Positions 6,001 through 9,000 of a DNA stretch of 17,290 bases are shown here, one piece after another. The position numbers were made by a program. Position 1 is the first letter of the stretch; the number at the start of each line of letters is the position of its first letter. The DNA comes from Candidatus Nanohaloarchaea archaeon. Its GTDB lineage: Archaea; Nanohalarchaeota; Nanosalinia; Nanosalinales; Nanosalinaceae. The stretch is taken from positions 1 through 17,290 of the forward strand of contig JBEQAY010000012.1 of NCBI GenBank assembly GCA_041640075.1, given 5' to 3'.

Positions 6001-9000
6001 TAATTTGAATTATTCAGGTAAAGTGTTTTTTCGGAAATATTGCTTTCGATATCTCCAGAGAGTTCTGGTATGATACTGATTTTCTTGGTATCGGGTTCTA
6101 TAGACATGTTAAGGTTGTACTTCGACCTCCAGTCACCTGAGACACATGCTGGGAGAGGCATGAGGTCAGGTCTCTCAATAATAACCTTAACTGCTGTAGT
6201 TTTGTTTTTTTCCTTGGTTCTGGACGTGTAACTGTATTTGGCGCCAGTGGTGTTGATAATCCCTGTGACAGAGACTTCTATGATATCACTTTTATCTGAA
6301 ATTTTCGTGATGTTGGCTGACGAACTATTTACTGAGCTGCAGAAAGTTGTCGCATGAAAACCTGTGATCTTTGGAGGTATAGAAAAAAACGTAGCCAGAA
6401 CCACGGGAAAAATTATCAGGACGAATGAAGAAACCGCTTTCAACTTCTTCGGAGAACTCATGTAAGTAAGTTGGAGAGTTCCTGAAATAAAAACCTGTCT
6501 GGTTGGAAAAATCTGCTGAACCTGCTTATGAAATTACTTGAGAATCTTTTTCTGAGGCAAATACTTTTTCTCCTCGTTCAGCCAGTTTGAAACCTTCTCG
6601 TAAAGTTCCTCTCCGAATTTCTCCAGTTTATCTATGTCTGAAACAGTAACTCCGGTTCCCTTTGATTTGGAGAGTGGTTTACCATATTTGTCTGAGATCA
6701 TAGGGCCGAGGAAGTAAGCCGGGTTTTCACCTGTCGCCAGCTCTGTGATTTTCGCAACTTTCGTCACTTTAGGTGTTTTCTGCTCCTTCTTCGCGTCCCT
6801 GTAGTCCCCTCCAAAGACATGTACAGCAGCATCTCTGGAAGGGTCACGTACAGGATCAACCAGGTAGTAAACACCTATTTCCTCATCAAGGCCTCCGTGC
6901 ATAAAACCGGATCCGCATTCTTCGTTCCTGCAGGAGGCCACAAGTTCATCAGTATCGGAGGAGTAATCACAGCCTTTGGCATGTGAAAATCCGCATTCAC
7001 TGCAGAAAGTTGTTACAGGACTTCTGTACCTTCTTCTGAAACCTCCACCGAATATCTCATCGAAGTCTGTAATGTTTTGCATAACCTTTCTAAGCGCCTC
7101 CACGTACTCTTTTTCACCAGTCAGGTCAGTAAGCCGTCTAACATCTAAGTCGTCTTCCATGGAGTTCCTGAGTCCGTCAAGGAAAGGCTGGATCGCATCA
7201 ATCCTGTGCTCCGGCAAGTTCTTGTGAGGATCACATGAACAGTCCCTGTTGTAGAAAAGTTTCATCACATCATTGTTCTCCGGCCGGTTCTGCTCATGCA
7301 CCGGTGCACTCCAGTCGGTATCACAGCAGAAAAGATCAAGCTCTAATCCAAGCTTGTCTGCGATAACTGCAGCATAAGCTATACTCAGAAGATTCCCAAC
7401 ATGCAGCTCACCGGACGGCCTGAAACCTACAGAAACCCTGCTACCGTCTAGTTCTCTGTTTTCGAGTTCTGTGAACTCTGATGTTATAATGTAATTTTCC
7501 GGAAAGTCACTCACATCTGTAATCGGTGCTTAAAAAATATATAAAATGTGTAGTCAGATTGGTCTCTCCACTACAGGACCATCATATCTATCCCAGAAAG
7601 TGTCTCGCATGTAACTCCAGCGGAGATCATCTGGATCCTCTCCTGTTGTGATAGCTACCATAGACTCGTCGAGATCAAAGTCTTCAAGTTTGTACTCATT
7701 AGAATCCAGTTTCTGATATACCTGTTCTGGCCAGTTCTCCTTGATCAAAATTCCATTGTTTCCCCATTCTTCCTCCAGATACTCCTGAAGTTCACTGTTC
7801 AGATAAGCCAATAACTCTGGGTTCTCATCCAGAATCTTACTTTTGACCTCTGTTTCATCTATCTGCGCGTCAAGAACTTCTTGAACCTCGCTGTAATCAA
7901 AAACACACCCCTTCTCATCTTGGTAAAAAGTTTCAAAGCTGGAAAGATCCTCCTCAATTTCCTGAGAAACCTCTACCTCAGTCAGCAGGTGATGAGCATC
8001 TTCTGTGAAGAAACCAACCCGTAAATTCTCATCTTCTAGCATAAACCTAAATTGAGGTACCTCAAATAAAAAAGATAATACATCGTAATACGAATTTATT
8101 TAGATGAGATTCAGCTATTTAATTCTTACTAGACCCAGTTAAAATGTATGCTGAGTAGCCTCGATGGCTCAGCTTGGCTAGAGCGGCCCCCTTGTACGAA
8201 CTGGTTACGCTCGGATTCACACGCAATAAGCCGTCTTCGACGGCTTCCAAGAAACGGAACTGGTTCACAGAAAGGGGCAGGTCGAGGGTTCAAATCCCTC
8301 TCGGGGCTAATTAGGTTTCTTGTTAGTTTTTCTGGTTTCTGAAAGTTTTTTGAGTTGAAGTTACTAACTTGGTTTTGTGCAGGTTTTTTCGTCAAGAAGA
8401 AGGAAACTGGAATCGGTGTTGATGTTTTCTCTAATAGGTTTTGTTGCTTTGCTTGGGAGGGATTTTATTTCGATATCGGTTCTCTCTGATCCTGAAGCTT
8501 TGGCCGGTCTGATAGGGCCTTATGGCTATGCCGGTATAATTTTCACACAGTTTGCTCAGGTCTTGATTGCACCTTTACCACCTGTCACCCCTGTTGTCAG
8601 CGGAATGCTGTACGGCGTGGTTGTGGGTACTTCTCTCAGTTTTGTGGGTGCTGCTATCGGAAGTCTGGCGGCATTGCTTATCGGTAAGAGGTTTGGAAGG
8701 CCTACGGTACGCAGGTTTCTCTCAAATGAAGCACTGGAGAAATTTGACAGGTACACCTCAGGGCATGGATACCTTCCTTTCGTGGTCCTGTTTGTTTTTC
8801 CCGGCTTCCCGGATGATGCTCTTTGCTTCATCGCAGGTCTTACTGATCTTGACTGGAAGAAACTGTTTTTGATCGCGTCTTTCGGCAGAATACCTGGTAT
8901 AGCTCTTCTTGCAATGACAGGAAGCAGTGCAGCACAGGCTAATACTACAGTCTTCCTGATTTCAGCCTCTGCAGTCCTGACAATTAGCCTATTGTCCATA

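What a model noticed while it worked through the whole genome (the two positions that open the first line are those of the whole stretch)
6534..7514. Stand-alone class I LysRS catalytic-core paralog restricted to Nanohaloarchaeota
g00553 (326 aa) is a highly conserved paralog of class I lysyl-tRNA synthetase that keeps the Rossmann catalytic core with HVGN and KSKG signature motifs and two Cys-rich metal sites but lacks the whole anticodon-binding domain; the genome also has a full class I and a class II LysRS. I read it as a new aaRS-like enzyme that activates lysine (or a related amino acid) and puts it on something other than the 3' end of tRNA-Lys: a protein (as the class II LysRS paralog EpmA/PoxA lysylates EF-P), a tRNA base (as GluQRS/YadB does on queuosine) or a small molecule (as MshC/BshC); the small Zn-ribbon protein g00550 that is its fixed neighbour is a candidate partner or acceptor. 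No paralog derived f [...]
Evidence so far: Pfam tRNA-synt_1f only 36.6 bits, E 1.5e-10, no Swiss-Prot hit. 158 homologs at E<=1e-3, the 120 listed are 300-345 aa and 55-76% identical, all named ones from Nanohaloarchaea incl. cultured Nanohalobium constans, Nanohalococcus occultus, Nanohalovita; in 30 of 70 Nanosalinales genomes at E<=1e-5 (about 27 with strong full-length hits), 17 of 28 high-quality; true LysRS-I (~545 aa) hits at only 23-30% identity. 34-sequence alignment: invariant G30-F-R-P-S-G-x-L-H38..N41, C64-D-T-D-W-S-A, C92/C94/H97/H103, C171/C174/C195/C200, S282-K-S284. AF2 model pLDDT 87, pTM 0.88; best PDB fold match P. horikoshii class I LysRS 1irx (E 1.6e-11, TMq 0.63, 17% id, ~300 of 507 residues); GluQRS 4a91, MshC, [...]
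(Added by a program. Inside this text positions count along the whole contig: contig position 1 is position 1 of the stretch shown here. "Call 12" and the like, gene names such as g00115 and contig names such as C1 are that model's own, and its searches are not shown. The text may have been shortened before it was handed on; [...] marks where a part breaks off. The agent that wrote the report below was given it as the finding of a first reader that could run no searches.)

Follow-up and report, generated by a model that had tools for sequence, protein, structure and literature searches.

The report
LysRS-I-derived ligase of symbiotic archaea
This gene encodes the catalytic half of an archaeal lysine-tRNA ligase that has lost both its anticodon reader and its lysine-binding residues; it belongs to an apparently undescribed enzyme family of tiny symbiotic archaea and bacteria and probably activates some acid other than lysine, most likely to put it on tRNA.

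Summary
The ORF is real (326 aa, intact) and folds like the class I LysRS catalytic core (best match 1irx, Z 20.1), with HVGN/PLSKS ATP motifs and both LysRS-I zinc modules, but no anticodon-binding domain. (1) It is not restricted to Nanohaloarchaeota: relatives occur in 11 of 301 Nanobdellota-phylum genomes and in CPR bacteria. (2) Lysine is unlikely: the Glu and Tyr invariant in LysRS-I are replaced in 81 of 81 family members, and all 13 positive Nanobdellota genomes tested have a canonical LysRS, nine of them class II only. (3) The Zn-ribbon neighbour is in 28 of 28 high-quality genomes against 16 of 28 for the paralog, and is not adjacent outside one family: synteny, not a dedicated partner. 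No partner gene co-occurs. Best reading: an optional adenylate-forming ligase with a rebuilt pocket acting on a universal acceptor, most likely tRNA (about 0.4); substrates unknown. Not found in ten literature searches. The scan noted this family before on other DNA (e1-4316869, e1-2781855, e1-905439).

The parts
6534..7514 (-). LysRS-I-like stand-alone catalytic core, 326 aa (Rossmann fold, connective-peptide domain with two Zn modules, stem-contact fold; no anticodon-binding domain)
   Evidence: (model 13-326 aligns to 1irx 4-319)
7392..7427 (-). HIGH motif region G30-F-R-P-S-G-E-L-H38-V-G-N41; S44 just after it stands where LysRS-I has its invariant Glu (E41 of 1irx)
7206..7241 (-). First Zn module C92-x-C94-x-x-H97...H103, equivalent to the D/C-x-x-x-C-H...H site of LysRS-I; kept in the nanohaloarchaeal clade (64-65 of 67), patchy in the wider family
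   Evidence: Zn binding itself inferred
6915..7004 (-). Zn ribbon C171-x-x-C174...C195...C200, equivalent to C177/C180/C200/C203 of nanohaloarchaeal LysRS-I
6801..6866 (-). Family signature Y217-L-V-D220-P-V-R223-D224...H232-V-F-G-G-D237-Y238: the rebuilt substrate pocket (D224, G235, D237 invariant in 81 of 81)
6663..6677 (-). KMSKS equivalent P280-L-S-K283-S284 (K283 in 79 of 81)
4964..5281 (+). Small Zn-ribbon protein (g00550): syntenic, convergent neighbour; universal in the phylum, not a dedicated partner
8158..8308 (+). tRNA-Thr(UGU) with a 76-nt intron, divergent from the gene; marks the other edge of the ancestral locus
1164..2788 (+). oapABC cluster, core of the syntenic block at whose edge the gene sits

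Best explanation
An optional, vertically inherited enzyme of DPANN archaea (with CPR-bacterial relatives), derived from the class I LysRS catalytic core. Step 1 (inferred from intact HVGN and PLSKS motifs): it binds ATP and forms an acyl-adenylate. Step 2 (inferred from the pocket): the acid is not L-lysine; the pocket is rebuilt around R32, T/S44, C64, Y217, D224, H232, F234, Y238, G/A270. Step 3 (weakest inference): the acyl group is passed to tRNA, gripped by the retained Zn-bearing connective-peptide domain and stem-contact fold without reading the anticodon, either onto a modified base (as GluQRS does) or onto the 3' end. Shown: fold, ancestry, motif conservation, pocket replacement, range, co-existence with a canonical LysRS, transcription of an orthologue. 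Not shown: any activity, substrate or acceptor. About 0.8 that it is an active non-lysine adenylating enzyme; about half of that for tRNA as acceptor.
For: Fold and profile closest to LysRS-I: Z 20.1 over 277 residues, HHalign 99.35%, 275 columns, far above TrpRS 93.5, CysRS 78.7, TyrRS 52.4, GluRS 10.5 against small 4-5-row profiles where LysRS-I gave 98.6. ATP motifs kept across a family with 15% mean column identity (H38 80 of 81, K283 79 of 81). LysRS-I R44-E45, W221, H243, Y271 are invariant in 12 of 12 LysRS-I rows, while the family has no E at the E45 place and no Y at the Y271 place in 81 of 81. Canonical LysRS in 13 of 13 positive Nanobdellota genomes: 4 class I, 9 class II. A named orthologue's genome lists 18 aaRS specificities plus GatCAB and GatDE, so no synthetase is missing (PMC10266531 supplement 3). 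No co-occurring or replacing gene emerged from a two-positive/two-negative screen, which fits substrates that every cell has. Conserved positions are less acidic than in 86% of 390 orthologue pairs and than the housekeeping aaRSs listed; an invariant F-R-R-R-Y-x-S-P stretch and K243/246/249/252 are kept in a halophile. Eight of 30 distinct non-nanohaloarchaeal loci lie in gatD/gatE/gatB/aspS clusters.
Against: After allowing for kinship the translation-gene context is not above chance: the gat loci and the rpS9 loci fall in one clade (support 92), leaving about 5-7 translation-linked against about 13 other contexts; my rough baseline from one annotated table part (about 19% translation genes) gives about one in three by chance. 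BshC, a small-molecule ligase, is the second fold match (Z 16.8), and distant relatives sit beside ASCH and ATP-grasp genes. The charge signal is weak (one genome pair). The screen used one whole and one 72%-held negative genome. The gene is absent from 3 of 8 closed genomes. No candidate base modification was found: Elp3 is missing in two positive genomes. Pocket mapping rests on alignments at about 18% identity, and 1irx has no bound amino acid (PMC7387524).
Confidence: 0.4

Rival explanations
1. tRNA-independent small-molecule ligase (MshC/BshC-like amide formation) or dinucleoside-polyphosphate synthetase using common metabolites.
For: BshC Z 16.8 is the second fold match, MshC Z 10.8; H232-V-F-G-G-D resembles the D-I-H-x-G-G-x-D strand of CysRS; a distant LysRS-I-like family lies beside ASCH and ATP-grasp genes on plasmids.
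Against: No glycosyltransferase, deacetylase or other pathway gene is a conserved neighbour or co-occurs; the hosts of the gene are biosynthetically reduced (own knowledge).
Confidence: 0.25
2. Protein-modifying ligase (EpmA-like) acting on a universal translation factor or on the Zn-ribbon neighbour.
For: Precedent of EpmA/PoxA (PMC9437257, passage); a universal acceptor would also explain the lack of a co-occurring gene; the Zn-ribbon gene lies within 2 kb in 23 of 24 positive f1 genomes.
Against: Zn-ribbon gene in 28 of 28 high-quality genomes, not adjacent in the four f4/f5 positives or in any Pacearchaeota/Woesearchaeota locus; DHS in 24 of 28 high-quality genomes, so aIF5A already has its usual modifier.
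Confidence: 0.15
3. It still activates lysine (or a close analogue) and serves as auxiliary or split LysRS.
For: LysRS-I ancestry; database labels 'Lysyl-tRNA synthetase, class I'.
Against: E41/Y268-equivalents replaced in 81 of 81; no separate anticodon-domain gene in three genomes; LysRS-1 needs U35/U36 (PMC9976931, passage); nine positive genomes have no LysRS-I at all.
Confidence: 0.07
4. Non-catalytic or only ATP/RNA-binding relic (regulator, tRNA chaperone).
For: Dispensable (12 of 28 high-quality genomes lack it); lowest RPKM of the 20 'tRNA synthetase' rows (755 against 923-5650).
Against: HIGH, KMSKS and a family-specific pocket signature are kept over very deep divergence.
Confidence: 0.1

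Closest known systems
Class I lysyl-tRNA synthetase (LysRS-I, subclass Id; PF01921, TIGR00467; PDB 1irx)
   Same: Rossmann core, both Zn modules, stem-contact fold, HVGN and KMSKS motifs; Z 20.1, HHalign 99.35%.
   Different: No anticodon-binding domain; R-E after HIGH, W-x-x-D-W-P-M-R-W, E-P-x-G-K-D-H and Y268 rebuilt; TIGR00467 16 bits against cut-off 147.55; dispensable.
GluQRS/YadB (PDB 4a91)
   Same: Class I catalytic core without anticodon-binding domain, Zn site, about 300 aa; Z 12.8. Best functional analogy.
   Different: Derived from GluRS; NF004315 16.5 bits against cut-off 250; its acceptor, queuosine, is bacterial/eukaryotic (own knowledge); F234 stands where the GluRS-type strand has Arg (recalled numbering, not tested).
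BshC (PDB 4wbd) and MshC (PDB 3c8z)
   Same: aaRS-like Rossmann ligases without a role in translation; Z 16.8 and 10.8.
   Different: 7% and 15% identity; act in glycosyltransferase/deacetylase pathways, none linked here; BshC is 540 aa.
EpmA/PoxA
   Same: LysRS paralog lacking the anticodon domain.
   Different: Class II fold, unrelated; keeps a lysine-type substrate.

Membership tests
LysRS-I | Class I Rossmann core with HIGH and KMSKS motifs | tested here: met
LysRS-I | C-terminal anticodon-binding domain (about 215-245 residues after KMSKS) | tested here: not met
   40-49 residues after K283 in 67 of 67, 26-104 in 81 of 81; no separate gene in 3 genomes; no 749-2135-aa form found, weak evidence
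LysRS-I | Invariant Glu and Tyr of the lysine pocket (E41, Y268 of 1irx; roles recalled from Terada 2002 and later mutagenesis, not retrieved) | tested here: not met
   invariant in 12 of 12 LysRS-I rows, absent in 81 of 81 family rows; register
LysRS-I | Curated family score | tested here: not met
   TIGR00467 16 bits against 147.55; domain model PF01921 is passed, 40 against 27
LysRS-I | Lysylation of tRNA-Lys | not testable with these tools
   needs an assay
GluQRS/YadB | GluRS-derived core, family score | tested here: not met
   16.5 against 250 bits; HHalign to GluRS 10.5% against LysRS-I 98.6%
GluQRS/YadB | Aminoacylation of a tRNA base | not testable with these tools
   needs an assay
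BshC/MshC | Linked glycosyltransferase and deacetylase pathway genes | tested here: inconclusive
   none conserved nearby or in the co-occurrence list; whole genomes were not searched for these families
EpmA/PoxA | Class II aaRS fold | tested here: not met
   class I fold
Anti-phage defence systems (PADLOC) | Match to a defence model | tested here: inconclusive
   1 of 81 members, one weak hit E 7.8e-4

The most novel reading that the evidence does not exclude
An anticodon-blind synthetase shared by the two great groups of reduced episymbionts (DPANN and CPR) that loads a non-standard acid onto tRNA, the symbiont's own or its host's: a tRNA acylation that is unknown so far, possibly with a metal site (C/D/M64, D224, H232) at the base of the pocket.
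Probability: 0.12. Interest if true: 0.9.

Novelty: new variant of a known kind. Interest (0 to 1): 0.55.

Why it matters
Anticodon-less aaRS paralogs have repeatedly revealed new chemistry (GluQRS, MshC, EpmA). The LysRS row of a 2022 review table lists only class II-derived ones (LysU, PoxA, LysX; PMC9437257, passage), so this would be a repurposed class I LysRS core. It is kept by organisms that have shed most enzymes, is transcribed in a cultured nanohaloarchaeon, and is mis-annotated as LysRS in public records. Cultured carriers and closely related non-carriers exist, so substrate and acceptor are directly testable.

Tried and rejected
Predicted complex with the Zn-ribbon protein: no answer (score 0.01, mark 0.32), neither for nor against binding. 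Co-occurrence screen (G000 and G356 positive; G337 whole and 800,000 of 1,118,574 bases of G345 negative): 39 rows including the gene itself, none a tRNA-modifying enzyme by my reading of the sequences; two candidates tested on 70 genomes and rejected: TrpRS type (most positives have the other type) and ABC1 kinase (26 of 28 positives but also 25 of 42 negatives); the others were not tested. Reverse screen for a replacing gene: 23 rows, none an evident substitute. cm5U-amidation idea: Elp3 absent from positives G308 and G309 (92-93% complete). Stand-in for GluRS: GluRS in 5 of 5 positives tested and in the own genome; CysRS present. Viral carriage: 0 of 32 and 0 of 31 pattern matches confirmed; distant members gave no hit in phages or plasmids. 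Fused longer forms: 0 of 7506 candidates, weak evidence. Sigma-70 promoter/terminator scan at chance level. RNA contigs of 4 runs (2 samples, 1 study) cover parts of the orthologue on L180 at depth 2-4; presence only, unstranded. A mapping of D224 to the TyrRS specificity aspartate could not be confirmed; the profile alignment was out of register. Literature: ten searches found no description of the family; subscription papers and bioRxiv supplements are not covered.

Full report
Observation. The ORF at 6534-7514 (-) is intact, 326 aa. It passes Pfam PF01921 (40 bits, cut-off 27) but not the LysRS-I equivalog TIGR00467 (16 against 147.55). A word-indexed search gave 158 homologues; the 120 listed are 300-345 aa and the named ones nanohaloarchaeal. 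Sixty-seven of them align with 55 invariant columns. The AlphaFold2 model (pLDDT 91, pTM 0.90) matches P. horikoshii LysRS-I 1irx best by Foldseek (E 8.6e-13, TM 0.68) and by VIA-align (Z 20.1, model 13-326 on 1irx 4-319), followed by BshC 16.8 and GluQRS 12.8. Only 40-49 residues follow the KMSKS lysine, against 216-246 in LysRS-I. The genome has a class II LysRS and a class I LysRS held as two overlapping pieces at contig ends.

Range. The family is not confined to Nanohaloarchaeota. A profile search of 1.84 billion representatives gave 114 hits, most 300-430 aa. Named records include Pacearchaeota and Woesearchaeota, Nanoarchaeia, Peribacteria and Moranbacteria; 23 of the 26 distant representatives looked up carry no taxon name (one further name came from a cluster member). 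With an 81-row alignment, 11 of 301 sampled genomes of the G001 phylum and 28 of 70 nanohaloarchaeal genomes have a strong hit (about 180 bits or more; the weaker hits are mostly LysRS-I); 16 of 28 high-quality and 5 of 8 closed genomes are positive. In a quick, unrooted tree of 114 rows the eight nanohaloarchaeal rows form one clade (100) and the 11 LysRS-I rows another (100, branch 1.29); sister or nested origin cannot be told (the careful search did not finish; one LysRS-I row came from unpublished genome G249). In negative genome G337 tRNA-Thr(UGU) lies directly beside the Zn-ribbon gene, where positives have the paralog between them: vertical inheritance with clean losses.

Anatomy. Profile comparison with LysRS-I gives 99.35% over 275 columns; against small in-house profiles LysRS-I scored 98.6%, TrpRS 93.5, CysRS 78.7, TyrRS 52.4, GluRS 10.5. 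Both 'Cys-rich sites' are the inherited LysRS-I modules; the first is largely confined to the nanohaloarchaeal clade. ATP motifs are kept (H38 in 80 of 81, K283 in 79 of 81). The amino-acid pocket is rebuilt. Counting along 1irx places E41, W218, H240 and Y268; their role in binding lysine is recalled from the literature (not retrieved), and 1irx itself holds no amino acid (PMC7387524, passage). These positions are invariant in 12 of 12 LysRS-I rows, whereas the family has T/V/S at E41 and G/T/A/S at Y268, with no Glu or Tyr in 81 of 81; W218 becomes Y/F, H240 becomes Y, and new invariants appear (D224 81 of 81, H232 78 of 81, G-G-D-Y). Lysine is therefore unlikely.

Not a housekeeping synthetase. 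All 13 positive Nanobdellota-phylum genomes tested have a canonical LysRS: four class I, nine class II only; GluRS is in 5 of 5. No separate anticodon-domain gene exists in three genomes, and LysRS-1 depends on U35/U36 (PMC9976931, passage). For Ca. Nanohalococcus occultus, whose orthologue is P0091, supplement 3 of PMC10266531 (rows and one of eight parts read) lists two 'Lysyl-tRNA synthetase, class I' genes; SVXNc_0746 follows the glutaredoxin-NUDIX-GTPase block as here, so I take it to be the orthologue. It is transcribed (RPKM 755 against 2690 for LysRS; lowest of 20 'tRNA synthetase' rows) beside 18 aaRS specificities, GatCAB and GatDE. The main text does not mention it; it is not in the supplements of PMC11803251 searched.

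Neighbours and partners. In family f1 the gene sits convergently at the edge of the oapABC block, within 2 kb of the Zn-ribbon gene in 23 of 24 positives. But that gene is in 58 of 70 genomes and 28 of 28 high-quality ones, lies on another contig in the four f4/f5 positives and is not near any Pacearchaeota/Woesearchaeota copy. Of 30 distinct loci outside Nanohaloarchaeota, 14 have a translation or RNA gene as immediate neighbour, eight lie in gatD/gatE/gatB/aspS clusters, three follow rpS9, two follow aIF5B-PUA, one follows ThrRS. Against my reading: the gat and rpS9 loci are one clade, and after de-replication the share is near my rough chance baseline of one in three. A screen for co-occurring or replacing genes found none (one negative genome only 72% held). 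DHS is in 24 of 28 high-quality genomes; Elp3 is missing in two positives.

Mechanism. Most likely an adenylate-forming ligase for a non-lysine acid (about 0.8 active). The acceptor is open. I favour tRNA (0.4 overall) because the tRNA-contacting modules of LysRS-I are kept, conserved positions are unusually basic for a halophile (86th percentile of 390 pairs), and no partner gene is needed, as expected for universal substrates. A small-molecule ligase (0.25) is supported by BshC and by a distant LysRS-I-like family linked to ASCH and ATP-grasp genes; protein modification 0.15; relic 0.1; lysine enzyme 0.07.

Novelty. Passages of three reviews or surveys (PMC9437257, PMC11580382, PMC2922099) show no LysRS-I-derived paralog, and ten searches found no description; subscription papers were not covered. 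The kind (anticodon-less aaRS paralog) is known; this parent and this family appear undescribed. Earlier notes of this scan reached the same family on other DNA; they are not independent support, and my range and pocket results were obtained before I read them. Verdict: real, new variant of a known kind, function unresolved; interest 0.55.

Noticed in passing
window 8158-8308 (+): tRNA-Thr(UGU) with a 76-nt anticodon-loop intron, missed by the default scan and mis-called as Ser by ARAGORN with introns; intron-less copies in L023 and L033. On L180 RNA contigs show a joint going back 126 bases over the same tRNA's intron, as for an excised intron circle. tRNA introns are frequent in these genomes.
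   Followed up: partly
window 4964-5281 (+): Zn-ribbon protein of unknown function, 71% mean column identity, in 28 of 28 high-quality nanohaloarchaeal genomes, no Pfam family over cut-off; a possible phylum signature gene.
   Followed up: partly
G000:C7:29930-31087; L157:14393-15553; L126:2787-3890: Two distinct TrpRS types (about 36-42% identical to each other) alternate among nanohaloarchaeal genomes, even within genera; about 14 of 70 genomes carry the rarer type: repeated gene displacement.
   Followed up: partly
L007:207-4011: The class II LysRS lies between lysA and a dapA-like gene, in a lysine-biosynthesis cluster, in a genome that also has LysRS-I.
   Followed up: no
L057:626-2535; L058:1261-3317; L235; L236: A more distant LysRS-I-like family (G-A-Q-P-N-S-S-P-H motif) followed by ASCH-domain genes; relatives on Macrococcus plasmids after two ATP-grasp genes and on Streptomyces plasmids before an ASCH gene.
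   Followed up: partly
L049:1019-1501; L050:1029-1514: A 160-aa protein without Pfam match is the convergent neighbour of the long (407-aa) subfamily in two genomes.
   Followed up: no
window 11438-13111 (+): 557-aa acidic protein with a weak N-terminal GHKL/sacsin-like ATPase match; rest unassigned.
   Followed up: no
window 1164-2788 (+), 5285-5992 (+), 10275-10685 (+), 16479-16553 (+): oapABC cluster, isopentenyl phosphate kinase, CTP-dependent riboflavin kinase, tRNA-Pro(UGG).
   Followed up: no
phylum survey, families f4 and f5: Deoxyhypusine synthase found in 3 of 10 f4 and 0 of 8 f5 genomes, Elp3 in 0 of 10 f4 genomes (genomes 69-93% complete).
   Followed up: no
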